A stretch of DNA of 64,000 nt from an uncultured Pseudomonadota bacterium (GTDB lineage: Bacteria > Myxococcota_A > Polyangia > Fen-1088): contig CAVTSM010000003.1 of the NCBI GenBank assembly GCA_963737345.1, positions 2,099,171 through 2,163,170 on the forward strand, written 5' to 3'. A program made the position numbers and the translations under genes. Positions 5,595-49,335 of this stretch are shown piece by piece. How positions within the stretch are numbered: the stretch's first letter is position 1; the number at the start of each line of letters is the position of its first letter. The notes under the pieces are model-generated. The model did not search any database. It had not been told where the DNA came from and saw only the letters and a program-made list of their open reading frames with translations.

Positions 5595-6986
5595 CTACAT
5601 ACTGAGGTCGCGCAGCAGGCCGGTCATCATCTGCAGGGAGAGGGCGGTCCAGGATTCCTGGTAGTAAGTGCTGCCCGCCAGGTCGCCCAAGGTGGCCACG
5701 CTGGCGTAGGCGTCCTCGCGCAGCTGGGCGTAGGTCGACCCGGTCGCCATCGCGCCCACCCCCGCCCCGCCCACGAACGACGCCGCGCGCGGGCTGCCGG
5801 CGTTGACGAATTGCGGGTGCGGGTTGCCGTTCAGATCGTAGCCGTCGACCATCGCCGCGACGGTCACGCCCGCGTAGAAGCTGCTGATCTTCTGCAAGTA
5901 GCTGAGCGCGCGCGGCTCGGCGTTCCAGCAGTAGTCCTGGCCGATGCGGAAGGGCGTCCGGCAGGAATCCAGCTGGTGGTGAATCGGATCGCCCGTGCCC
6001 GCGGGCGGCATCGGCGCGCCGGCTGGTGTCGACCAGGCGGGGACCAGCCCGTTGCTGGCGTTCCCGTTCTGCGTGTTCAGCGTCGCGGCGAGCACCGTGT
6101 ACGTCGCTTCGACCGTCTGGTTCCAGCCTGCGTTGCCCGACACGCGCGCGAACACGCGGTAGTACGCCGGCGCGAAATACGAGATGTTGATGACCGAGCC
6201 GTCGGCGAATTGATCGCCCGGCGTCAGCACGTTGTTGCGTCCGTGGTCGACCTCGTGCTGCCACATGGCGTCGATCAACTTCTTGGCGGCCGCCAAGTAC
6301 GTGGTCGAGAGGCTGCCCTGCCCTCCCCAGCGCTTGTCGGCCATCGCCAGCGCGAAGGCCATGTCTTCGTCGGCGTCGCTGGCGGCGCCGGTCCCCAGCG
6401 CCTGCGTTCCGGCGGCGTTGATGTACCAGTTCATGAGGCCGTTTCCGTCCAGCCACAGGTTCGCGTACTTCCAGAACTTGTCGAACGACGCCTGATCGTC
6501 GGCGTAAACCGCCAACAGCATCGCGTAGCCGATCCCCTCTGAAACCGTGGAGTTGACCTCGGCTCCCGAAGAGTTCGGCCGCTTGACCCGAAGGAAACCG
6601 CGGGCACCGTCGCTGGTCACCAGGTCGGCCATCCACTTCGCGTAAGCCGCCTGGGCGTCACTCAGCTTGGCCGCGGCCGGCGCCGCGCAATGGCCGGCGC
6701 CCGGAATGCTGAGAGCGGTTGCCGCGCCGCCGGCTCCCCCACTGGCCGCCACGCCGCCCGCGCCGGGTGCGGCGCCCCCGGCCCCGCCGCGTCCGATGGT
6801 CGCGCCGCCCCCGCCGCTGCCGCCCGCGGCATTGGGAACACCGCCGCTGCCCGTGCCGGAGCCGCCCGTCGAGCCACCCGATCCAGTCGATCCGCCCGCG
6901 CCATCCGGATGACCGGGCGACGCGCAGCCGGTCGGTTGGGCCAGCAGGCAGAGCATAAGCAAAGGAAGCGCAGGGGACCGAAACAT
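5595..6986 (-). CDS. Secreted glycoside hydrolase family 8 (endoglucanase/chitosanase-type) with Gly/Ser-rich linker
   Basis: ATG at complement 6984-6986 with RBS ggagga. Signal peptide MFRSPALPLLMLCLLAQPTGC. GH8 catalytic motifs NSTVSEGIGYAMLLAV and ASDADEDMAFALAMADKRWG. The track ORF extends to a TTG at 7007. Confidence 0.8.
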   Translation of the reverse strand: MFRSPALPLLMLCLLAQPTGCASPGHPDGAGGSTGSGGSTGGSGTGSGGVPNAAGGSGGGGATIGRGGAGGAAPGAGGVAASGGAGGAATALSIPGAGHCAAPAAAKLSDAQAAYAKWMADLVTSDGARGFLRVKRPNSSGAEVNSTVSEGIGYAMLLAVYADDQASFDKFWKYANLWLDGNGLMNWYINAAGTQALGTGAASDADEDMAFALAMADKRWGGQGSLSTTYLAAAKKLIDAMWQHEVDHGRNNVLTPGDQFADGSVINISYFAPAYYRVFARVSGNAGWNQTVEATYTVLAATLNTQNGNASNGLVPAWSTPAGAPMPPAGTGDPIHHQLDSCRTPFRIGQDYCWNAEPRALSYLQKISSFYAGVTVAAMVDGYDLNGNPHPQFVNAGSPRAASFVGGAGVGAMATGSTYAQLREDAYASVATLGDLAGSTYYQESWTALSLQMMTGLLRDLSM

Positions 6987-41348: not shown

Positions 41349-41440
41349 CCCGCGCACCGCATGTCCTGAAAGTCTGGCGGGCGGTTCTGCCGTCATCAAG
41401 CGAAACGCGTGGTAATTTGGTCCGGCCGGGTCGCCCGCTG

Positions 41441-43276
41441 ATGAGCCACGCGTCGCGCTACACCATCCTGCGGAAAGTCACTGACGGCGGAACGGCCGAG
41501 ATCTTCCTAGCCAAGCAGCACGGCGCGCAAGGGTTCGAAAAGACCGTCGTCCTCAAGCGCATTTTTACGACGTTCTACGCCGACCCTCAGTTCAGGCACA
41601 TGCTGGTGGACGAGGCGCATGTCGCGATGTCGCTCAATCACAGCAACATCGTGCAGGTGCTGGACCTGGGCGAGGCCGACGGCCGGTATTTCCTGGCGCT
41701 CGAGCTGGTCGACGGCTGGTCACTCGACCGTATTTTGAAGCGCGCCAAGGCGGCCGGCGTTCAGATGCCGCCCCCGCTGGCGCTGTACGTGACCGCCGAG
41801 GTGTGCCGGGCGCTGGCTTACGCCCACGCCAAGCGGCGCCCCGACGGAAAACCGCTGGGCATCGTCCACCGCGACGTCAGCCCGCACAACGTCCTCATCA
41901 GCGAACAGGGCGAGGTCAAGCTGACGGATTTCGGTATCGCGAAAGCGATGAACAAGACCGAAAAAAGCCTGGGGAACCTGATCAAGGGGAAGGTCGCCTT
42001 CATGTCGCCCGAGCAGGCCGCCGCGGCGCCACTGGACGCGCGTTCGGACCTGTTTTCGGTCGGGACCATCCTGTACGCGATGATCACGCGCCGGCACCCG
42101 TTCGACGCGCCCACGGATTACGAGACGTTGATGCTGGTGAAAAACGGCGACTACGTGCCGCCGGAGACCGCTCGGCCGGGCCTGAACCCGGAGCTTTATC
42201 GGGTGATTCGCAAGGCGATGGGCAAGCAGCCCGCCGACCGGTACCAGCGCGCCGAGGACATGCTGATCGACGTCGAACAGGTGATGCGGGTGGCGTTCCG
42301 GGCCGTCGGCCAAACCGAGTTGCAGCGATGGCTGGCGGAGCTGGGCGCCAAGGACGGCGTGCCGCCGGTGACGCGCGAGGCGCCGCCCGAGCCCCCGGCC
42401 GCGCGGTCGACGGTCGGTCCGCTGCGCGCCGGCTCCGGACAGGAGTCAGGCCTGGTGCTGAACCTGGACGACGCGGAGGAGGTTCGCGCCGCGGACCAAC
42501 CACCCCCGCCGCCGCCGGCGGCGGCGCCCACGGAAGTGATGCGAAAACCTCCCGCGTTCGCGCCAGCGGACCGGCCCTGGCAACGACAACCCGCCGTTCG
42601 GATCGGCCTGGCGCTGCTGCTGCTGATCGCCGGCCTGAGCGTGGGCGCCCGCTTGATGCGGGGCCGCAGCCCCGCCAGCGCGGTTCGTCCGAACCCGCCC
42701 CCGCCCGCGCCGCCCCCCGCCGCAACCGCGCCCACGCCGCCCGTTGCGGTGCCTCCAGCGCCGGCCGAGCCCGCGGCGCGCGTCGCGAACACGGACACCG
42801 CCGACGCGAGTCCACCGGGCGCTCCTGCGGCCGCACCGGTCGTCACCCCGCCCCCCGCTGGGACACGACCACCCGCGAAGACGACCGAGGTGGAGCCAGA
42901 GCCGGCAGAAGACAGCCTGCCCCCCGCCCCAGGCAGCGAGACGGACTCCAGCGCTGGCGGTCGCGGTCACCTCACGAAAGGACGGCCGCCGTTCCCCGTG
43001 CTGATCGAAAGTGATCCGGAAGGCTCGCACGTGACGACCGGGCGGCACCAATTCGGAACGACCCCGCTGACATTGAAATTGCGGCCGGGGAACTCGTACG
43101 AGCTGACCTTCAGCCACGCGGGATACGCGCCGGTGTCACGGCACTACCGCTTCGAGGCGCTCGCGCCGCAGACCCTGCGGGTGACCCTCAAGAAGCTGCC
43201 CGAGCCCCACAAGCCGCCGGCCGCACCCCAGGCTAGGCCGGCGGCGCCAGGGCCGAAGTCGTTCTTCTCGCGCTGA
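41441..43276 (+). CDS. Ser/Thr protein kinase with Pro/Ala-rich linker, TM segment and PEGA-like C-terminal domain
   Basis: ATG 41441 (MSHASRYTILRKVTDGGTAEIFLA...VVLKRIF...HRDVSPHNVLI...DFGIAKA). TM IGLALLLLIAGLSV. C-terminal LIESDPEGSHVTTGRHQFGTTPLTLKLRPGNSYELTF. Confidence 0.85.
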   Translation: MSHASRYTILRKVTDGGTAEIFLAKQHGAQGFEKTVVLKRIFTTFYADPQFRHMLVDEAHVAMSLNHSNIVQVLDLGEADGRYFLALELVDGWSLDRILKRAKAAGVQMPPPLALYVTAEVCRALAYAHAKRRPDGKPLGIVHRDVSPHNVLISEQGEVKLTDFGIAKAMNKTEKSLGNLIKGKVAFMSPEQAAAAPLDARSDLFSVGTILYAMITRRHPFDAPTDYETLMLVKNGDYVPPETARPGLNPELYRVIRKAMGKQPADRYQRAEDMLIDVEQVMRVAFRAVGQTELQRWLAELGAKDGVPPVTREAPPEPPAARSTVGPLRAGSGQESGLVLNLDDAEEVRAADQPPPPPPAAAPTEVMRKPPAFAPADRPWQRQPAVRIGLALLLLIAGLSVGARLMRGRSPASAVRPNPPPPAPPPAATAPTPPVAVPPAPAEPAARVANTDTADASPPGAPAAAPVVTPPPAGTRPPAKTTEVEPEPAEDSLPPAPGSETDSSAGGRGHLTKGRPPFPVLIESDPEGSHVTTGRHQFGTTPLTLKLRPGNSYELTFSHAGYAPVSRHYRFEALAPQTLRVTLKKLPEPHKPPAAPQARPAAPGPKSFFSR

Positions 43277-43521
43277 GCGATCGTCAGGCGACCGCCGTCA
43301 GCGCGTCTCCAGCATCAGGCGCAAGACCTCGATCGCGGCCAGGCGTCCCATGATCCGCCGCAGCTCGCCGAGATCGACGAAGGCGTGGACCACGCCCGCT
43401 TGCCCGACGGCCGACGCCCTCGAAGCCGGCCGTCCCGATTCGTCACTACCCGTTTCCGTTCCGCGCGCGTCATTCATGTGACCATCCTTCTGGCAAACCG
43501 GCGGTGTACCGCCCGGGGCAG

Positions 43522-43932
43522 CTAGCGCGCCATTCGTCGGTGCGCTGCCCTGTACTCCGACGATGTCAGCCGTTCGGCCGTTTGGCCAAGACGATCGAGC
43601 TCGATCGGTTTTCGCATGCATTCGAAACCCGCCTGTCTTCCCAGGCGGCACAGCTGCAATTCACGATCCGACCGCGCGGTGACGAGCAAGATCGCGCAGC
43701 CCGGTCGCGAATGGCGCAGCCAGCGGATCAGCTCGAGGCCGTCCATGCCTGGCATCTCGAGATCGGTGACCACCAGGTCGGCCGGGAAGCCCGTCAGCGC
43801 CTCGCAAGCTTGCCGGCCATTCCCCGCGACCATGACGTCGTAGCCTGCATCCGCAAAGTAGTCGCGCAACAGCTCACGCGTGAGGTCGTCGTCGTCGACC
43901 AGCAGAATGCGTGAACGTCCCATGCTGTCCAT
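43522..43932 (-). CDS. Single-domain response regulator receiver
   Basis: RILLVDDDDLTRELLRDYF...DLVVTDLEMPGMDGLEL...AILLVTA. Confidence 0.7.
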   Translation of the reverse strand: MDSMGRSRILLVDDDDLTRELLRDYFADAGYDVMVAGNGRQACEALTGFPADLVVTDLEMPGMDGLELIRWLRHSRPGCAILLVTARSDRELQLCRLGRQAGFECMRKPIELDRLGQTAERLTSSEYRAAHRRMAR

Positions 43933-44098
43933 GGGCGACGAGCGTGCAAGCCGCGCACCAATACTTACAGGTGGCTTCCTGGAACCTTGTAGGTCCTGGC
44001 CTTTTGCCGCAGTCCAGTCCGGTAACGTGAAAGGGGGCGCCGGTGACGCCGCGTGACCTCAGCCACGCCAAATCAGCGGGATTGCGCCGCCCCGCGGC

Positions 44099-44113
44099 TG
44101 GCACGCAACTTGT
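44099..44113 (+). promoter_or_regulatory. Candidate sigma-54 (-24/-12) promoter upstream of the CBS-domain gene
   Basis: TGGCACGCAACTTGT matches 14 of 15 positions of TGGCACG-N4-TTGC; about 60 nt upstream of ATG 44176. Confidence 0.3.
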
Positions 44114-44175
44114 TTGTGTTGGGCTGACGGGCGGGTGGGCTTCCGGTCCGCTAAACTCTAATTTGGAGGGCAGTC

Positions 44176-44709
44176 ATGGATGTCATGGCTGAAGTTGGGT
44201 CTTGCTGCGTGGCCGAGGTGATGGGGACGGAGCTGTACACGCTCACGCCAGACACGGTCGTGGCCTCGGCGCGGCGGCTGGCCTTCGAAAACGGAATCGA
44301 TCACCTGCTGGTGCTCGAAAACGGGACCTTGACCGGGATCGTCTGCCGCGAGGACTTGCGAACCGCCGAGCGGACGGCGTTCATCGGGGAGTGCATGAGC
44401 TCGCCGGTCCTGTGCATCGGGCCCGACACCACGCTCGACGAGGCGGCGCAGATCATGGCCGAGCAGCACGTGTCGTGCCTGCCGGTCGTGACCGGGGCGT
44501 TCCTGGTCGGCATCGTCACGCGGGACGCGCTGGCGACGGTGGGGCTGGCGGGCGAGCGGCGCCCGGCGCCCAAGCTGGTCTGCAGCGCCTGCGGGGCAGA
44601 CCATGAGGACGACAAGGTCCGCCGGGATCCGCGCTCGGGCGGGATCCCTCTGTGCGTCGATTGCCTGGGCCGCACATCCGCGAACGCGCTCCGCCGCCAA
44701 GCCGACTGA
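44176..44709 (+). CDS. CBS-pair domain protein with C-terminal CxxC...CxxC zinc ribbon
   Basis: RBS ggaggg. Two CBS motifs; ...LVCSACGADHEDD...PLCVDCLG. Confidence 0.7.
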   Translation: MDVMAEVGSCCVAEVMGTELYTLTPDTVVASARRLAFENGIDHLLVLENGTLTGIVCREDLRTAERTAFIGECMSSPVLCIGPDTTLDEAAQIMAEQHVSCLPVVTGAFLVGIVTRDALATVGLAGERRPAPKLVCSACGADHEDDKVRRDPRSGGIPLCVDCLGRTSANALRRQAD

Positions 44710-44737
44710 ACGCCGCCGCGTTGTATAAGCGCCCGCG

Positions 44738-46513
44738 ATGCCGGTCAGCCGCGCGGGTGCGAAATTGGAAGCGGCGCTGGACCAGTTTCACCTGGCCGGC
44801 GCCGTGGCAGGCGCCCGCGCCGTCGACGTGGGCGCATCGGCCGGCGGCTTCACGGAAGTCTTGCTCGCGCACGGCGCCCTTTCGGTGCTGGCGGTCGACG
44901 TGGGCCGCGACCAGCTTCACCCGTCGCTGCGTGCGGATGGCCGAGTCACGGTCCTGGAAGAGACGGATTGGCGGCGCCTGTCCCTGAACGAAGCTGAAGG
45001 GCCATTCGATTTCTTCACGGTGGATGTGAGCTTCGTCTCTGCCCGTAACATGCTGAGGGGCCTGGCGTTTCGTTTACGCCCCGGCGCCCAGGGGGTCGTC
45101 CTGGTGAAACCTCAGTTCGAGCTCCCCGATCGCCAGGTCAAGGGCGGCGAGGTGCGCGACCAAAACCTGCGCCAGGCGGCCGTCGATCGGGTCCGCAAGC
45201 GCGGCCAGGCGCTGGGCTTCCAGCTGGTCGCCGACGTGGACTCGCCCGTCGCGGGGCGCGAAGGGTCGATCGAGATCCTGGCCCATTTGAAGTTCGACGG
45301 GCGTTCGGCTCGGCTGCCCGCGCCGGGCGAGCGCCGGCCGCACCAGCCGCGCGCCCGCCGGACCGCGGCTGGACCGGAGGCGCTGCGCTGGTTCGCGGTG
45401 GTCGCGCCCGGGCTGGAGCCGGCAGCCGAACAAGAGGTCCGCGCGCTGGAAGGCGCCACGGAGGTGACAGCGGTCGCGGGCGGCGTCGAATGGACGGCGC
45501 CTGTGCTGGGCGGGCTGGACGCAAACCTGTGGCTGCGCACCGTCACCCGGGTTCTGGCACGCGTCGGAAGCGTCGAGGCCCGCGAGTTCGGCAAGCTGCG
45601 CCGGCGCGGGGCGGGCCTTCCCTGGGACCGGTTTTTGGCCCGCGGCGCCGTGGTCAGCATCCGCGCCAGTACCACGCGTTGCCGTCTCTACCACACGGGC
45701 GCGCTGGTCGAGACCGCCGCCCTGGCGATCGCGGACGCGGTGCCCGGGGTCCGCGTCGCCGCCAAGGACGAGGACCAGGCCACCGCAGCGGTGCTGATAC
45801 GCGGCGAGGCGGATCGCTTCACGTTCAGCGTCGACGCCTCCGGCGAGCGCCTGCACCGGCGCGGGGCCCGCATCGAGGTGGGGGCGGCGCCCATGCGCGA
45901 GACCTTGGCGGCCGGCCTGTTGGCGCTGGCGGGATGGGAGCCCAACCAGGCTCTTTGCGATCCGGTCTGCGGCGCCGGGACGATCGCGATCGAGGCGGCG
46001 CTGCAAGCCGTGGATCGGGCGCCAGGGCTGGATCGAGAGTTCGCGCTGGAGGACTGGCCGCTGTTCGCCGCATCCGGCGACGCGGCCGCCTCCGTACGCG
46101 AACGGGCGCGCGCCCGCGTCCGGCCGGCGGCGCCGGCACCGATCACCGCCTCCGATCGCGATCCGTCGGTGATCGAAAGCGCCGCCCGGAATGCGGCGCG
46201 CGCCGGCATCGCCGAACAGATCGCGTTCGCTTGCCGCGATCTGGGCGACGCGCGACCGCAGCCCGGGCAGGCCGGGCTGGTGATTGCCAACCCACCTTAT
46301 GGGCGGCGGCTCGGCGATCCGCGCGCGGCGGTGCGCGTCTATCGCGATCTGGGACGGCTCCTGCGCGCGCACTTTCGCGGGTGGCGCGCCGCCATCGTCG
46401 TGCCGGCGCGGCTGCCCGGCGCGGGCGATGCCCTGCGGCTGACCCTCCCCGACCACCACCGCTTGCGCAACGGCGGGCTCCCGATCGAGCTGCGCGTCGG
46501 ATCGATCACTTGA
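44738..46513 (+). CDS. Fusion: TlyA-like FtsJ-type RNA 2'-O-methyltransferase (no S4 domain) :: THUMP plus RlmL/UPF0020-type (NPPYG) RNA methyltransferase
   Basis: aa 1-190 PVSRAGAKLEAALDQF...DVGASAGGFTEVLL...VKPQFEL...EGSIEILAHLK matches the TlyA catalytic domain. aa ~200-591 contain a THUMP-like region, then CDPVCGAGTIAIEAA and VIANPPYGRRLG motifs. Confidence 0.7.
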   Translation: MPVSRAGAKLEAALDQFHLAGAVAGARAVDVGASAGGFTEVLLAHGALSVLAVDVGRDQLHPSLRADGRVTVLEETDWRRLSLNEAEGPFDFFTVDVSFVSARNMLRGLAFRLRPGAQGVVLVKPQFELPDRQVKGGEVRDQNLRQAAVDRVRKRGQALGFQLVADVDSPVAGREGSIEILAHLKFDGRSARLPAPGERRPHQPRARRTAAGPEALRWFAVVAPGLEPAAEQEVRALEGATEVTAVAGGVEWTAPVLGGLDANLWLRTVTRVLARVGSVEAREFGKLRRRGAGLPWDRFLARGAVVSIRASTTRCRLYHTGALVETAALAIADAVPGVRVAAKDEDQATAAVLIRGEADRFTFSVDASGERLHRRGARIEVGAAPMRETLAAGLLALAGWEPNQALCDPVCGAGTIAIEAALQAVDRAPGLDREFALEDWPLFAASGDAAASVRERARARVRPAAPAPITASDRDPSVIESAARNAARAGIAEQIAFACRDLGDARPQPGQAGLVIANPPYGRRLGDPRAAVRVYRDLGRLLRAHFRGWRAAIVVPARLPGAGDALRLTLPDHHRLRNGGLPIELRVGSIT

Positions 46514-47567
46514 TCGGCAATTCCAGCTGCGCGCGCGGAGGCTCCCGAGCCGACTTGCCGACTGCCTTCGGCGCTTCCGCCAGCGAGCGGGCGTTGTCGC
46601 CCATCGCGGCGTGCGGACGGAAGCCGTGGCGCGCCGCCGAGGTATCGAAGAGCGCCTGGATCGCCTGCGCGTACGTCCCCTCGCCGCGCCCGCGCACGCC
46701 GAACCGCGAATCGTAAAGCTGGCCGCCGCGCGTTTCGCGGACCCGATGCAGCACCCGCTCGGCCGACAGCGGCAGCGCCGCCCGCAGTCGCTCCTCGAAG
46801 ACGGCCTTCACCGAGCCAGGCAGGCGCAGCAACACGTGGCCGGCCGACCGCGCACCCGCGTCGTGCGCCGCCTTCAAGATGCGCGGGATGTCTTGGTCGT
46901 TGAGCCCCGGGATGATCGGCGCGACGTTCACACCGACGGAGATCCCCGCGCGCGCCAGCTTCTCGATCACGCGCAGCCGCCGCGCGGGCGCCGGCACGTA
47001 CGGTTCGATGGCGCGCGCCTTGTCGGCGTCCCAGAACGGAATGCTGACGGTGACGTGCGCCGAAGCGACGGCGCCCAGACTGGCCAGCACGTCGATGTCG
47101 CGCTCGACCAGCGCCGACTTCGTGATGATGGCCGCCGGGTTCGCACGCTCGACGCACACCTCGAGGCAACCGCGCGTGAGGCGGTATGACGCTTCAAGCG
47201 GCTGGTAGCAATCGGTGACGCCGCTGAAGACCACCGTCTCGCGGCGCCAGCTCTTGCGGGCGAAGGCGGCGCGCAGCAAGGCCGGCGCCTCAGGCTTGAT
47301 GACGATCTTCCGATCGAAGTCGGTCCCAGCGCCGAAGCTGAGGTACTCGTGCGACGGGCGCGCGTAGCAATAGGCGCACGCGTGAAAACAGCCGCGGTAA
47401 GGATTGACGCTCCAGGTGAATCCGACGTCGGGGCTGTCGTTCTTCGACAGGATGTTGCGCGTGCCGTCGGCAAACACCTGCAGCCGCACCTCGGGAACGC
47501 CCTCCAGATATTCGACTTCGGTGGTCGCCCATGGGTTCGGCGGATTCGAGATCGCCACCGGCAGCAC
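46506..47567 (-). CDS. Radical SAM protein, SplB-like putative DNA-repair lyase (COG1533-type)
   Basis: GTG start. NPYRGCFHACAYCYAR (CxxxCxxC). Convergent 8-nt overlap with the upstream fusion gene. Confidence 0.8.
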   Translation of the reverse strand: MLPVAISNPPNPWATTEVEYLEGVPEVRLQVFADGTRNILSKNDSPDVGFTWSVNPYRGCFHACAYCYARPSHEYLSFGAGTDFDRKIVIKPEAPALLRAAFARKSWRRETVVFSGVTDCYQPLEASYRLTRGCLEVCVERANPAAIITKSALVERDIDVLASLGAVASAHVTVSIPFWDADKARAIEPYVPAPARRLRVIEKLARAGISVGVNVAPIIPGLNDQDIPRILKAAHDAGARSAGHVLLRLPGSVKAVFEERLRAALPLSAERVLHRVRETRGGQLYDSRFGVRGRGEGTYAQAIQALFDTSAARHGFRPHAAMGDNARSLAEAPKAVGKSAREPPRAQLELPIK

Positions 47568-47582
47568 CCCAAAAGTTTGGCA

Positions 47583-47598
47583 CTGAACCGATGTTCAG
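47583..47598. promoter_or_regulatory. Perfect palindrome CTGAAC-cgat-GTTCAG (GAAC-N4-GTTC, Cheo/LexA-box-like) 16 nt upstream of the radical-SAM repair gene start
   Basis: 6-4-6 inverted repeat in the 77-nt divergent intergenic region between the SplB-like gene and the aminotransferase. Confidence 0.45.
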
Positions 47599-47644
47599 TC
47601 AAGCGCCGGCGCGATCAATCAAGTAGTGTTCCGCGGCTTTTGTC

Positions 47645-48847
47645 ATGGCAGGCCCCCCCGACCCCTCTTCGAACCGCTTCGCGCGATTGGCCGCGCTTCC
47701 CCCTTATGTGCTCGCCGCCGTCGACGAGCTGAAGTCGCGGCTGCGCGCCGAGGGGCACGATGTCTTCGACTTCGGTCTCGGCAACCCGGACGGGCCCAGC
47801 CCGCGCGCGGTGATCGAACGGCTGACGACGGAAGCGCAGCGGCCCGGGAATCAGCGCTACATGCCGTCGCGCGGCCTACCGGAGGTGCGACGCGCGATCT
47901 GCGACTGGTACCAGCGCCGCTACGGCCAGACGTTCGACCCCGAGACGGAAGCGGTGGTCACCCTCGGCGCGAAGGAGGGGCTGGCGCACCTGCTGCTGGC
48001 CATCGTCGGACCCGGGGATTGCGTGCTGTCGCCCGACCCCTGCTACCCAATCCACCGCTACGGCGTGATCATCGCCGGCGGCGAGCCCGTGCCGGTGGCG
48101 ACCGGCCCCGGCCTCGATCCCTACGGCGAGATCGAGGCGGCCCTGGCGCGGTCGCCGCGCAAGCCCAAGGGGCTCATCATCAACTTCCCCCACAACCCGA
48201 CCAGCGCCGTCGTCGAGCAGAGCTTCTTCGAGAAGGTGGTCGCGCTCGCAAAGCGTGAATCGCTTTGGGTGATCTCGGACCTCGCGTACGCGGACCTGCT
48301 GCACGACGGAAAGCCGGCGCCGTCCATCTTCGGCGTGCCCGGCGGGCGAGACGTGGCGGTCGAGTTTTTCACCGTGTCGAAGAGCTACTCGATGCCCGGC
48401 TGGCGCGTCGGCTTCTGCGTCGGAAACCGGACGCTGGTGGGCGCGCTGGGGACGATCAAGGGCTACCTGGACTACGGAATCTTCGGGCCCGTGCAGCTGG
48501 CGGCGGCGACCGCGCTGTCGCCCCTCTGCGACGCGGACGTCGCCGCAAACCGCGAGCTCTACAAGCGTCGGGCGGCGATTCTGTGCGACGGACTGGCGGC
48601 AGCGGGGTGGCCCGTGCCGCGGCCGACGGCGTCGATGTTCGTCTGGGCCCCGCTGCCCGGACGGGCCGTCGAAAAGGGCGCCGTCACGTTCGCGGCCGAG
48701 CTGCTGGCCGAGGCGCGGGTCGCCGTGTCACCCGGCGTGGGATTCGGCCCCGGCGGCGAGGGGTTCGTGCGGTTCGCGCTGGTCGAGACGGACGACCGCG
48801 CGCGGCAGGCGTGCGCGGCCATCGGACGCTTTCTCCACACGCATTGA
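47645..48847 (+). CDS. PLP-dependent aminotransferase class I/II (AlaC/LL-DAP-AT-like)
   Basis: ...NPDGPSP...[11 protein letters not shown]...[16 protein letters not shown]...; 400 aa. Confidence 0.85.
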
Positions 48848-48882: not shown

Positions 48883-49335
48883 ATGCCTTCCGCAGCCACG
48901 CACCATCGCCCCACTTTCCAGGCGAACGACTCGTTCGTCCACGGCTGGCACATCGCCGACGTCGAGGGTCAGACCCTTGGCCGCGCCGCCACCAAGATCG
49001 CCGACATCCTGCGCGGCAAGCACCGCCCGACGTACACCGCGCATGCCGACGCCGGTGACTTCGTGGTGGTCATCAACGCCGACAAGGTTCGCCTGACCGG
49101 GAAAAAGTGGTCGGGCAAGCTGTACCGCGATCACTCGCTGTTCCCCGGCGGCTTGCGCACGCAGACCGCGGAGCAGCTGGTCAAGCGCCACCCCGAGGAC
49201 CTGGTCCTCCGCGCCGTGTGGGGCATGCTGCCCAAGGGCCCGCTCGGCCGCCGCATCTACAAGAAGCTCAAGGTCTACGCCGGCCCGAACCACCCGCACG
49301 CCGCGCAGCAGCCCAAGCCCGTCAAGTTCGCCTAG
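48883..49335 (+). CDS. rplM: 50S ribosomal protein L13
   Basis: ...[24 protein letters not shown]...[34 protein letters not shown], colinear with E. coli L13. Confidence 0.9.

What the first reader, a model, noticed from the sequence alone, without database searches (positions are those of the whole stretch)
44738..46513. Unusual RNA-methyltransferase domain fusion: TlyA-type 2'-O-MTase (without S4) fused to THUMP plus an NPPYG (RlmL/Trm14-type) base MTase
A 591-aa single frame joins a clear TlyA catalytic domain to a THUMP RNA-binding module and a class-I MTase with CDPVCGAGT and NPPYG motifs. The TlyA part lacks its usual S4 RNA-binding domain, so THUMP may have replaced it. The N-terminal motifs are PVSRAGAKLEAALDQF, DVGASAGGFTEVLL and VKPQFEL. 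The product would carry one ribose-MTase and one base-MTase active site. Known fusions such as RlmKL pair two base MTases. I do not recall this pairing.
Basis: partly seen in the sequence, partly recalled or inferred. Interest (0 to 1): 0.6.

Follow-up and report, generated by a model that had tools for sequence, protein, structure and literature searches.

The report
S4-less TlyA fused to RlmL methyltransferase
This is a real, conserved gene in uncultured Polyangia (myxobacteria) that joins a ribose-methylating TlyA-type enzyme, missing its usual RNA-binding domain, to a complete RlmL-type guanine methylase; it is probably a two-headed ribosomal-RNA modifier, an undescribed but unsurprising variant of known enzymes.

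Summary
Window 44738-46513 (+) is one 591-aa ORF with every quoted motif in place. An in-frame TAA at 44726-44728 rules out a hidden upstream S4 domain.

The N-terminal half (aa 3-186) is TlyA-type, not RlmM- or RlmE-type. Its K9-D96-K124-E179 tetrad is intact. The C-terminal half (aa 216-591) is a complete RlmL module: ferredoxin-like domain, THUMP and an NPPY methyltransferase.

It is not an indel artefact. More than 100 protein clusters and 76 species-level genomes carry it, all uncultured Polyangia/Myxococcales, at 42-92% identity and in at least two genomic contexts. Both catalytic sets are invariant. The linker is flexible and ranges from about 30 to about 100 aa.

"THUMP replaced S4" is not supported as history. 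Standalone S4-less TlyA-type genes of about 210 aa exist in Myxococcota, and in a rough tree the fusions form one clade beside them. S4 was probably lost first, followed by a single fusion.

Most likely function (inferred): the RlmL module docks on early 23S rRNA and makes m2G2445, while the tethered ribose methylase modifies a site within reach. That site is unknown. No publication describing it was found, though pipelines already annotate both halves. Verdict: new variant of a known kind, moderate interest.

The parts
44738..46513 (+). Whole fusion gene, 591 aa plus TGA stop
   Evidence: ORF list. Conserved at full length in >100 protein clusters and 76 species-level genomes. GC3 stays at 0.72-0.94 in one frame across the junction.
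44726..44728 (+). In-frame TAA that bounds the ORF upstream, so there is no room for an S4 domain
   Evidence: Sequence read. All relatives also begin M-x-VSRAG or carry at most about 13 extra residues.
44744..45295 (+). TlyA-type class I 2'-O-ribose methyltransferase catalytic domain (aa 3-186), S4-less
   Evidence: Pfam FtsJ 7e-30. NCBIfam TlyA 2e-39 over profile positions 58-234 of 236. PDB TlyA/YiiB hits at 1e-31 to 1e-35. Foldseek 5kyg TM 0.81, rmsd 1.9 A, 46% identity.
44762..44764 (+). K9, first Lys of the K-D-K-E tetrad (aligns to Mtb TlyA K69)
   Evidence: Alignment to 5ks2/7s0s. Invariant in 28 of 28.
44825..44866 (+). SAM-binding motif I, DVGASAGGFTEVLL (aa 30-43)
   Evidence: D30, G32, A33, G36, G37, F38 and T39 are invariant.
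45023..45034 (+). D96 (catalytic Asp, aligns to Mtb D154) through F99 (aligns to the base-flip Phe157)
   Evidence: Invariant in 28 of 28. The role of Phe157 is taken from PMC9168844.
45107..45109 (+). K124, second catalytic Lys in VKPQFE (aligns to Mtb K182)
45272..45274 (+). E179, catalytic Glu (aligns to Mtb E238)
45296..45388 (+). Interdomain linker (aa 187-217). It carries the conserved motif LPAPGERR (aa 193-200, nt 45314-45337), then a variable, disordered stretch.
   Evidence: P194 and G197 are invariant, followed by 10-20 variable residues. AF2 pLDDT is below 50 at aa 201-212. The linker is expanded to about 100 aa of low-complexity sequence in L073. The KPQFE-to-NPPYG distance ranges from 380 to 461 aa.
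45392..45556 (+). RlmL ferredoxin-like N-terminal domain (aa 219-273)
   Evidence: Pfam RlmL_1st 5e-11, found in 28 of 28 members.
45557..45859 (+). THUMP-type RNA-binding domain (aa ~274-374), divergent in sequence; boundaries approximate
   Evidence: No Pfam hit in the window protein; 7 of 28 relatives hit PF02926, best 1e-5. The region is covered by the RlmKL model alignment 5-382 and by superposition on whole RlmL-type structures 3k0b/3ldu/3ldg, TM 0.86-0.89. The model shows an alpha/beta pattern here.
45860..46510 (+). RlmL-type class I N-methyltransferase domain (Pfam aa 375-554, with a C-terminal beta hairpin to aa 591). Motif I is CDPVCGAGT (nt 45956-45982); motif IV is NPPYG (nt 46289-46303).
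   Evidence: Pfam UPF0020 2e-41. D408, P409, C411, G412, G414 and N518-P-P-Y-G522 are invariant. PDB 3k0b 1e-47 and RlmKL 3v97 2e-43.
44176..44709 (+). Upstream CBS-pair gene, 28 nt from the fusion start. It is syntenic context and probably co-transcribed (inferred); it is not part of the enzyme.
   Evidence: Pfam CBS 2e-25. Present immediately upstream in 38 of 76 loci.

Best explanation
This is a genuine, vertically inherited gene of an uncultured Polyangia lineage that encodes a bifunctional, two-active-site RNA methyltransferase, most likely acting on 23S rRNA. The C-terminal 375 residues are a complete RlmL module: ferredoxin-like domain, THUMP, and an NPPY class I methyltransferase. By homology this module binds the helix-74 region of protein-free 23S rRNA early in 50S assembly and makes m2G2445. 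The N-terminal 186 residues are a TlyA-type 2'-O-ribose methyltransferase that belongs to an S4-less subclade. It cannot recognise the ribosome the way canonical TlyA does, because that requires S4 residues R6 and R20 at the base of H69. In this protein it hangs on a flexible 30-100 aa tether from the RlmL module. The RlmL module would therefore deliver it to nascent 23S rRNA, where it methylates a ribose within reach. Shown here: the fusion, its conservation, both intact catalytic sets, the absence of S4, the flexible linker, and the order of events (S4 loss, then one fusion), the last only from a rough tree. Inferred: rRNA as substrate, m2G2445 as the RlmL product, tether-mediated targeting, and early-assembly timing. 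Unknown: which ribose is methylated.
For: A real gene: identical architecture in >100 clusters at 60-100% identity, about a dozen further 50%-identity clusters down to 42%, and 76 species-representative genomes. 62 of those loci have one uninterrupted frame; the rest are two standalone genes, apparent contig-end truncations, and unresolved cases I take to be long-read frameshifts or motif variants. Synteny is conserved in one clade, and the fusion is kept in other contexts in another clade. Both halves look active: K9/D96/K124/E179, motif I, DPxCGxG and NPPYG are invariant in 28 sequences at 61-91% identity, while the protein overall evolves faster than its neighbours (69% identity against 84-88%). 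Family assignment: TlyA 135 bits against RlmM 22 bits; RlmKL 218 bits against Trm14 90 bits. Structural TM scores are 0.81 to the TlyA CTD and 0.86-0.89 to whole RlmL-type proteins. The closest standalone relative of the C-half is a Polyangia RlmL-size protein located beside rimP-nusA and a release factor. Flexible tether: pLDDT below 50 at aa 201-212, pTM 0.63, and variable linker length. Canonical TlyA needs its S4 domain for the 50S substrate and recognises mature 50S (PMC9168844). RlmKL uses naked 23S rRNA and does not act on 50S (PMC3351187). Three of seven H69-contacting CTD residues of Mtb TlyA are replaced across the family: Y115 to R/H, R133 mostly to G/E (4 of 28 keep R), and K189 to D in 27 of 28. 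A fourth, S234, is E in 10 of 28. Precedents: RlmKL is a fused two-methyltransferase enzyme acting on one helix, and RlmM is THUMP plus a TlyA-like ribose methyltransferase acting on naked domain V.
Against: There are no biochemical data for any member. The substrate, the sites and the activity of each half are all inferred from homology. Standalone S4-less relatives with no RNA-binding domain at all show that the catalytic domain can presumably find a substrate without a cis-acting THUMP, so the tether may not be needed for targeting. Mtb TlyA CTD lacking the RAWV linker is SAM-binding deficient, and this clade keeps only the V, so activity of the N-domain is not guaranteed. Gene neighbourhoods give no ribosome-biogenesis signal. 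The AF2 interdomain geometry is not reliable, so I could not measure the distance between the active sites. I could not establish whether these genomes also encode a canonical TlyA, RlmL, RlmK or RlmM.
Confidence: 0.62

Rival explanations
1. Simple co-expression fusion. The N-domain still makes the canonical TlyA product (Cm1920 in H69, possibly also Cm1409 in 16S) independently of the RlmL module, and the fusion only ensures equal dosage of two rRNA methylases.
For: The closest characterised family is TlyA. The base-flip Phe (F99), R5 and R/K79 are conserved. The long disordered linker would allow independent action. Standalone S4-less forms exist.
Against: In Mtb TlyA the S4 residues R6 and R20 are indispensable for 50S methylation, and the whole domain is absent here. 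K189 is replaced by an almost invariant Asp, and Y115 and R133 are not conserved. RlmL-type enzymes act on naked rRNA whereas TlyA acts on mature 50S, so the two canonical activities fall at different assembly stages.
Confidence: 0.25
2. One reading: THUMP directly replaced S4 as the RNA-binding module of a TlyA enzyme, as a one-step domain swap.
For: S4 is absent and a THUMP-containing module is present in the same polypeptide. RlmM shows that THUMP can serve a TlyA-like ribose methyltransferase.
Against: Complete standalone S4-less genes of about 210 aa with no THUMP occur in Myxococcota. In an NJ tree the canonical/S4-less split has 60/60 support and the fusions are one clade (55/60) beside the standalone forms, so S4 loss probably preceded the fusion. 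THUMP sits about 90 residues or more downstream, behind a disordered linker, and is an integral part of a complete RlmL; it was not inserted at the S4 position.
Confidence: 0.15
3. One methyltransferase domain is catalytically silent and acts as an RNA chaperone or helper for the other, as RlmK enhances RlmL by unwinding helix 74.
For: RlmK stimulates RlmL and unwinds H74 independently of SAM. Loss of the RAWV motif may weaken SAM binding in the N-domain.
Against: Every catalytic and SAM-motif residue of both domains is invariant across 28 sequences down to 61% identity, while surrounding positions vary. That pattern is expected for active enzymes.
Confidence: 0.07
4. The substrate is tRNA, not rRNA: a Trm14/TrmN-like m2G enzyme coupled to a ribose methylase.
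For: THUMP is most common in tRNA enzymes. Trm14 and TrmN are detectable relatives.
Against: The RlmKL model scores 218 bits against 90 bits for Trm14. TM scores are 0.86-0.89 to RlmL-type proteins against 0.74-0.83 to Trm14/TrmN, with 25-29% against 17-21% identity. The closest standalone homologues have RlmL size and architecture.
Confidence: 0.07
5. Assembly or sequencing artefact: an indel merges two adjacent genes.
For: None beyond the a priori possibility. A few long-read MAG loci do appear to carry frameshifts that split the gene; I did not inspect each one.
Against: The fusion is seen in hundreds of independent assemblies from several sources and sequencing technologies. The linker carries a conserved motif. 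GC3 is continuous in one frame. The standalone relatives of the two halves that I examined are not adjacent to each other.
Confidence: 0.01

Closest known systems
TlyA (16S/23S rRNA cytidine-2'-O-methyltransferase; M. tuberculosis Rv1694; PDB 5kyg, 7s0s)
   Same: The N-terminal 186 aa share the class I fold (TM 0.81, 44-46% identity), the K-D-K-E tetrad, motif I, the KPQFE motif and the base-flipping Phe.
   Different: There is no S4 domain, and only the V of the RAWV linker motif remains. It scores below both curated TlyA cut-offs (135 < 250 and 124 < 185.8). The H69-contact positions Y115, R133 and K189 are replaced across the family (4 of 28 keep R at the R133 position). It is fused to another enzyme.
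RlmL / the N-terminal half of E. coli RlmKL (YcbY; PDB 3v97), and standalone RlmL-type proteins (3k0b, 3ldu, 3ldg)
   Same: The C-terminal 375 aa have the same three-domain layout (ferredoxin-like, THUMP, NPPY methyltransferase), with full-length superposition and conserved motifs I and IV.
   Different: There is no RlmK (m7G2069) half. The partner enzyme is at the N-terminus and is a ribose methylase, not a base methylase. The THUMP sequence is divergent.
RlmKL as a concept: a fused bifunctional rRNA methyltransferase
   Same: Two SAM-dependent methyltransferase domains sit in one polypeptide together with an RlmL module. By analogy the two targets may lie close together on early-assembly 23S rRNA.
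   Different: The partner is from a different family (TlyA-type 2'-O against RlmK m7G), the domain order is opposite, and the join is a long disordered tether rather than a compact one.
RlmM (E. coli YgdE, Cm2498; PDB 4atn)
   Same: It combines a THUMP domain with a ribose methyltransferase whose closest structural relatives are TlyA and YiiB, and it acts on naked domain V.
   Different: RlmM runs THUMP then methyltransferase and has one active site. Similarity here is only weak (22 bits; Foldseek rmsd about 13 A), so this protein is not an RlmM family member.
Standalone S4-less TlyA-type proteins of Myxococcota (e.g. P0290, P0299; loci L074, L075); uncharacterised
   Same: They share the same subclade-specific motifs (APGPFDFF, ARxMLR), are 53-63% identical, and also lack S4.
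   Different: They are single-domain genes of about 210 aa with no RlmL module and without the LPxPGERR linker motif.

Membership tests
TlyA family rRNA 2'-O-methyltransferase | FtsJ-like class I methyltransferase domain with the K-D-K-E tetrad and SAM motif I | tested here: met
   K9, D96, K124 and E179 align to Mtb K69, D154, K182 and E238 and are invariant. Motif I is invariant.
TlyA family rRNA 2'-O-methyltransferase | The best-matching ribose-methyltransferase family is TlyA rather than RlmM, RlmE or fibrillarin | tested here: met
   NCBIfam TlyA 135 bits against RlmM 22 bits, and RlmE is not listed. All PDB sequence hits to the N-domain are TlyA or YiiB.
TlyA family rRNA 2'-O-methyltransferase | N-terminal S4-fold RNA-binding domain (R6 and R20 are essential for the 50S substrate) | tested here: not met
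   An in-frame stop lies 12 nt upstream of the ATG. The profile match begins at position 58 of 236. No family member has PF01479.
TlyA family rRNA 2'-O-methyltransferase | Interdomain RAWV-type linker motif required for SAM binding by the Mtb CTD | tested here: not met
   The protein starts M-P-V-SRAG, so only the V is retained. Some deeper fusions have RYVGRGG. The requirement is taken from PMC9168844.
TlyA family rRNA 2'-O-methyltransferase | Score above the curated family cut-off | tested here: not met
   NF049952 135.3 < 250; TIGR00478 123.9 < 185.8.
TlyA family rRNA 2'-O-methyltransferase | Conservation of the CTD residues that contact H69 (R65, Y115, R133, R137, K189, F157, S234) | tested here: inconclusive
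   R65, F157 and R137 are kept (R137 as R or K). Y115 becomes R/H. R133 is mostly G/E, with R kept in 4 of 28. K189 becomes D in 27 of 28. S234 is S or E. These positions are only moderately conserved among canonical TlyAs as well.
TlyA family rRNA 2'-O-methyltransferase | Makes Cm1920 (23S) and/or Cm1409 (16S) | not testable with these tools
   Needs biochemistry or modification mapping.
RlmL (23S rRNA m2G2445 methyltransferase) | Ferredoxin-like N-domain + THUMP + UPF0020 methyltransferase architecture | tested here: met
   Pfam RlmL_1st and UPF0020. RlmKL model positions 5-382 are aligned. TM 0.86-0.89 over about 385 columns to 3k0b, 3ldu and 3ldg. The THUMP Pfam model hits only 7 of 28 members.
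RlmL (23S rRNA m2G2445 methyltransferase) | Motif I (DPxCGSGT-like) and motif IV NPPY of exocyclic-amine methyltransferases | tested here: met
   D408-P-V-C-G-A-G-T and N518-P-P-Y-G, invariant.
RlmL (23S rRNA m2G2445 methyltransferase) | Closer to RlmL than to the tRNA enzymes Trm14, TrmN and Trm11 | tested here: met
   218 bits against 90 bits. Foldseek E 1e-31 to 1e-34 against 1e-19 to 1e-21.
RlmL (23S rRNA m2G2445 methyltransferase) | Forms m2G2445 on naked 23S rRNA | not testable with these tools
   This property of E. coli RlmKL comes from PMC3351187 and is inferred here by homology.
RlmKL (bifunctional RlmK/RlmL equivalog NF008748) | C-terminal RlmK m7G2069 methyltransferase half, and a score above 466 bits | tested here: not met
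   Only model positions 5-382 of 704 are matched, at 218.5 bits. There is no RlmK domain.
RlmM (23S rRNA Cm2498 methyltransferase) | N-terminal THUMP followed by the RlmM-type methyltransferase; family HMM match | tested here: not met
   NF008734 21.9 bits against a cut-off of 176, covering aa 4-75 only. Foldseek to 4atn gives TM 0.24 and rmsd 12.8 A. The domain order is different.

The most novel reading that the evidence does not exclude
The S4-less TlyA-type module has acquired a new target. Delivered by the RlmL module to the helix-74 / peptidyl-transferase-ring region of nascent 23S rRNA, it would install a 2'-O-methyl that canonical TlyA does not make. Candidates are a Cm2498-like mark (convergent with RlmM) or a ribose methyl next to or on G2445. 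That would make this the first enzyme known to couple a base methylation and a ribose methylation in one rRNA neighbourhood. It would also define an S4-independent mode of substrate recognition for the wider S4-less TlyA subfamily.
Probability: 0.3. Interest if true: 0.6.

Novelty: new variant of a known kind. Interest (0 to 1): 0.4.

Why it matters
If both halves are active, this would be the first fused rRNA enzyme I could find that pairs a ribose 2'-O-methylase with a base N-methylase; RlmKL pairs two base methylases. It also exposes a whole S4-less branch of the TlyA family, standalone and fused. That branch cannot use the S4-dependent H69 recognition mechanism established for M. tuberculosis TlyA, so its targets are open. 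TlyA methylations determine capreomycin and viomycin sensitivity, so knowing what S4-less TlyAs modify bears on how ribosome modification patterns vary in soil bacteria. The practical impact is limited: the fusion is confined to uncultured Polyangia, both parent families are well understood, and it does not make any long-standing open question directly testable.

Tried and rejected
**Rejected**
- Upstream extension or a hidden S4 domain: ruled out by the in-frame TAA at 44726-44728.
- Indel or read-through artefact: ruled out by conservation in 76 genomes, the single frame, continuous GC3 and the conserved linker motif.
- N-domain belonging to another FtsJ-like family: ruled out.
- L072 and L073 as unfused states: L073 is a fusion with an expanded linker, and L072 is cut by a contig end.
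- Adjacent-gene precursor: not found. The standalone Polyangia RlmL and the standalone S4-less TlyA-type genes have unrelated neighbours.
- A second TlyA or RlmL copy in the window: none.

**Uninformative**
- Operon context as a clue to the target. The kinase, response regulator, CBS, radical-SAM and aminotransferase neighbours are conserved only in the closer clade and are not ribosome-related. The distant clades have other neighbours.

**Could not be done**
- Foldseek against AFDB, to see whether UniProt already holds the architecture: the library was unavailable.
- The primary RAWV paper (JBC 2017) is not held; I relied on its summary in PMC9168844.
- Exact look-up of the window protein's own contig failed.
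- Coexistence of a canonical S4-TlyA in fusion-bearing genomes. I ran no further search on a poorly chosen query.
- This is a rough tree, not maximum likelihood.

**Literature**
- Four searches found no description of the fusion or of S4-less TlyAs.
Full report

Yes. The ORF list gives one frame, 44738..46513 (+), 591 aa, with an ATG start.

Domain assignments:

| Library | Match | Residues | Score |
|---|---|---|---|
| Pfam | FtsJ | 3-186 | 7e-30 |
| Pfam | RlmL_1st | 219-273 | 5e-11 |
| Pfam | UPF0020 | 375-554 | 2e-41 |
| NCBIfam | TlyA equivalog, profile positions 58-234 of 236 | 3-184 | 135 bits |
| NCBIfam | RlmKL, profile positions 5-382 of 704 (the RlmL half) | 217-590 | 218.5 bits |

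The TlyA match starts at profile position 58, so exactly the S4 part of the profile is missing. The absence of S4 is not a start-codon artefact. An in-frame TAA lies at 44726-44728, and the upstream CBS gene ends at 44709, 28 nt before the ATG.

The only soft spot is THUMP. Pfam's THUMP model does not hit this protein and hits only 7 of 28 relatives. The region is nevertheless covered by the RlmKL model alignment. It is also covered by the structural superposition described in section 3.

**2. Is it an artefact?**

No.

- A search of 5.8 billion proteins returned more than 100 clusters of 590-610 aa at 60-100% identity. Nearly all carry PF01728 + PF22020 + PF01170, and they come from NCBI, ENA, JGI and Logan assemblies.
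- The 50%-identity library adds about a dozen full-length fusion clusters down to 42-45% identity. Below those, the hits become ordinary RlmL-size proteins of about 380 aa.
- A scan of one genome per GTDB species found 76 loci, all from uncultured Polyangia/Myxococcales/Myxococcota MAGs.
- 62 of the 76 loci carry KPQFE...NPPYG in one uninterrupted frame. Of the other 14, L074 and L075 are standalone genes. Several appear to be cut by contig ends, as L072 is. I take the rest to be long-read frameshifts or motif variants, but I did not inspect each one.
- In the window, GC3 stays at 0.72-0.94 in the same frame through the junction.
- The neighbourhood (Ser/Thr kinase, response regulator, CBS, fusion, convergent radical-SAM gene, aminotransferase) is conserved in the clade at 55% identity or above. 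The clade at about 50% identity keeps the intact fusion in different contexts. The fusion is therefore older than the local synteny.

**3. Anatomy**

A 28-sequence family alignment (61-91% identity to the window protein) shows both catalytic sets to be invariant.

- **N-half.** K9, D96, K124 and E179 align residue for residue with the Mtb TlyA tetrad K69, D154, K182 and E238 in the HMMER alignments to 5ks2 and 7s0s. Motif I (D30-x-G-A-S-x-G-G-F-T) is also invariant.
- **C-half.** D408-P-x-C-G-x-G and N518-P-P-Y-G are invariant.
- **Evolutionary rate.** The protein as a whole evolves faster than its neighbours: 69% identity against 84-88% in the same genome pairs. The invariant catalytic residues therefore indicate purifying selection on both activities.
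- **Linker (aa 187-217).** It starts with a conserved F-x-G-R...L-P-x-P-G-E-R/S-R motif. A variable stretch follows.
- **Structure prediction.** AlphaFold2 on this alignment gives mean pLDDT 84.8 but pTM 0.63, with aa 201-212 below pLDDT 50. This suggests two well-folded modules on a flexible tether.
- **Linker length.** In L073 the linker is expanded to about 100 residues of low-complexity sequence. The KPQFE-to-NPPYG distance ranges from 380 to 461 aa.
- **Fold matches.** Foldseek places the C-terminal ~385 residues on whole standalone RlmL-type proteins (3k0b, 3ldu, 3ldg; TM 0.86-0.89, rmsd about 3 A) and on RlmKL. It places the N-terminal ~185 residues on the TlyA C-terminal domain (5kyg; TM 0.81, rmsd 1.9 A, 46% identity). 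No solved structure covers both halves.

**4. Which TlyA?**

Canonical TlyA binds the mature 50S subunit through its S4 domain. R6A and R20A abolish 50S methylation. The catalytic domain contacts H69 through R65, Y115, R133, R137 and K189, with F157 and S234 stabilising the flipped base. The catalytic domain alone is SAM-binding deficient without the four-residue RAWV linker (PMC9168844).

| Mtb TlyA residue | Role | In the fusion family (28 sequences) |
|---|---|---|
| R65 | H69 contact | R, invariant |
| F157 | base flip | F, invariant |
| R137 | H69 contact | R or K |
| Y115 | H69 contact | R or H |
| R133 | H69 contact | mostly G or E (R in 4) |
| K189 | H69 contact | D in 27 of 28 |
| S234 | base flip | S (17), E (10), R (1) |
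| RAWV linker | SAM binding | only the V remains |

The chemistry is conserved, but the known recognition apparatus is gone or altered.

**5. Evolutionary order**

- Two loci from the genome scan, L074 and L075, encode standalone versions of the same subclade. They share the motifs APGPFDFF and ARxMLR. Neither has an S4 domain, even when the maximal upstream ORF is translated.
- A search with the L075 protein found many genes of 200-260 aa carrying only PF01728, at 54-63% identity. Canonical S4 + FtsJ TlyAs appear only at 51% identity or below.
- Domain scores separate cleanly. Fusions and standalone S4-less proteins score 170-396 bits and mostly have 0-25 residues before the domain; the two exceptions are over-long ORF calls. 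Canonical TlyAs score 113-147 bits and mostly have 57-65 residues before the domain.
- In an NJ tree of 52 catalytic domains, the canonical/S4-less split has 60/60 bootstrap support. The fusions are monophyletic in 55 of 60 replicates and sit beside the standalone S4-less proteins.
- Standalone members P0299 and P0290 are complete genes of 209-210 aa in unrelated neighbourhoods, with no RNA-binding partner adjacent.
- The closest standalone relatives of the C-half (49% identity, 391 aa) are Polyangia "class I SAM-dependent RNA methyltransferase" genes. They sit beside rimP-nusA and a release factor, with no TlyA-like neighbour.

The most economical history is that S4 was lost in a myxobacterial TlyA lineage, and that one later event fused this S4-less enzyme to the lineage's own RlmL. 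This contradicts "THUMP replaced S4" as a single swap. It leaves open the possibility that the RlmL module now supplies the targeting. The tree is a rough NJ analysis and should be repeated with maximum likelihood.

**6. Mechanism (inferred)**

E. coli RlmKL methylates naked 23S rRNA, does not act on 50S subunits, and works early in assembly. In that enzyme the fused partner methylates the same helix and helps RlmL (PMC3351187). RlmM combines THUMP with a TlyA-like ribose methyltransferase and acts on naked domain V (PMC3488215).

By analogy, I propose that the RlmL module docks on the helix-74 region of nascent 23S rRNA and makes m2G2445. It would hold the S4-less ribose methyltransferase on a 30-100 aa leash, so that it can methylate a 2'-OH within reach.

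Which ribose is methylated cannot be decided here. Candidates are C1920 (the canonical TlyA site), a site in the peptidyl-transferase ring such as C2498, or something new.

The main rival (about 0.25) is that the N-domain works independently on the canonical TlyA site and the fusion only couples expression. Against that rival stand the missing S4 domain, the K189-to-D change, and the different assembly stages at which the two canonical enzymes act. In its favour are the existence of standalone S4-less enzymes and the long floppy linker. Less likely rivals are a silent helper domain (about 0.07), a tRNA substrate (about 0.07) and an assembly artefact (about 0.01).

**7. Comparison with known families and novelty**

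The protein works like a TlyA at one end and like an RlmL at the other. As a concept it resembles RlmKL. It is not a member of the TlyA equivalog: S4 and the RAWV motif are absent, and it scores below both curated cut-offs. It is not RlmKL, because it has no RlmK half. It is not RlmM.

Four full-text searches found no description of this fusion or of S4-less TlyAs. The architecture is, however, already visible in public annotation. JGI labels some members "RlmL / YqxC with S4 and FtsJ domains", NCBI labels them simply "SAM-dependent methyltransferase", and JGI labels many wrongly as "putative N6-adenine-specific DNA methylase".

I rate it a new variant of a known kind. It is of moderate interest to rRNA-modification specialists, mostly because the S4-less TlyA branch has no known way of finding its substrate. 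It is not surprising in kind.

**8. Limits**

- There are no experimental data for any member.
- The tree is a rough NJ analysis.
- The AF2 interdomain geometry is unreliable.
- I could not test whether fusion-bearing genomes also keep a canonical TlyA, RlmL, RlmK or RlmM. That test would most sharply separate "same target" from "new target".

Noticed in passing
L074:~6001-6597; L075:~523-1125; proteins P0286-P0303 (e.g. P0290, P0299): There is a whole subfamily of standalone TlyA-type 2'-O-methyltransferases in Myxococcota. They are about 200-260 aa and have neither an S4 domain nor any other RNA-binding domain. I found no description of them in the literature. How they find a substrate is unknown.
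   Followed up: partly
window 46506-46513: The fusion gene and the convergent radical-SAM gene (46506..47567, minus strand) overlap tail-to-tail by 8 bp. Both end in TGA. The arrangement is kept in 31 of 76 related loci.
   Followed up: partly
window 44176-44709: The upstream gene encodes a CBS pair followed by a Cys-rich tail (CSACG...CVDC) that looks like a zinc ribbon. It ends 28 nt before the fusion's ATG and is syntenic in 38 of 76 loci. It may be co-transcribed with the fusion. Its function is unknown.
   Followed up: no
L001-L030 compared with window 41417-48847: Across the same genome pairs the fusion diverges faster than its neighbours: about 69% identity against 84% for CBS, 86% for the radical-SAM gene and 88% for the aminotransferase. 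Its catalytic residues nevertheless stay invariant.
   Followed up: partly
L073:5362-7368: This fusion homologue (668 aa) lies downstream of a large ORF that looks like an error-prone DNA polymerase III alpha subunit (DnaE2), judged by eye only. Its interdomain linker is expanded by low-complexity repeats (GDGDGDGAGVGAGAGAGA...AKPSTGAKPSAKASASAKASA).
   Followed up: no
L075:85-520: The maximal ORF upstream of the standalone S4-less gene translates into repeated GGTGQAPNRQEV units. This suggests a DNA tandem repeat in the 5' region rather than coding sequence.
   Followed up: no
L045:2747-3742: In one distant-clade locus, an ORF that looks like an RluA-family pseudouridine synthase (motif ...WRLDHFLKQRIRR) lies about 2 kb upstream of the fusion. 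This was judged by eye only and is not conserved in the other loci examined.
   Followed up: no
L059, L061, L062, L063, L065, L069 (long-read MAGs); protein P0337: In several long-read MAG assemblies the fusion appears to be split by frameshifts, producing apparent 'standalone' fragments in protein databases. Such fragments could be mistaken for unfused genes.
   Followed up: partly
annotations of P0010-P0120: Most JGI entries for this family are named 'putative N6-adenine-specific DNA methylase'. This looks like a misannotation carried over from COG0116/UPF0020; the fold and domain context are those of an RNA methyltransferase.
   Followed up: no
window ~48900-49335: A ribosomal protein L13 (rplM)-like ORF lies about 2.4 kb downstream of the fusion; this was judged by eye from the translation. 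In the related locus L081, rplM-rpsI lie about 8 kb downstream. Separate, unrelated genes lie in between, so this is probably coincidental.
   Followed up: no
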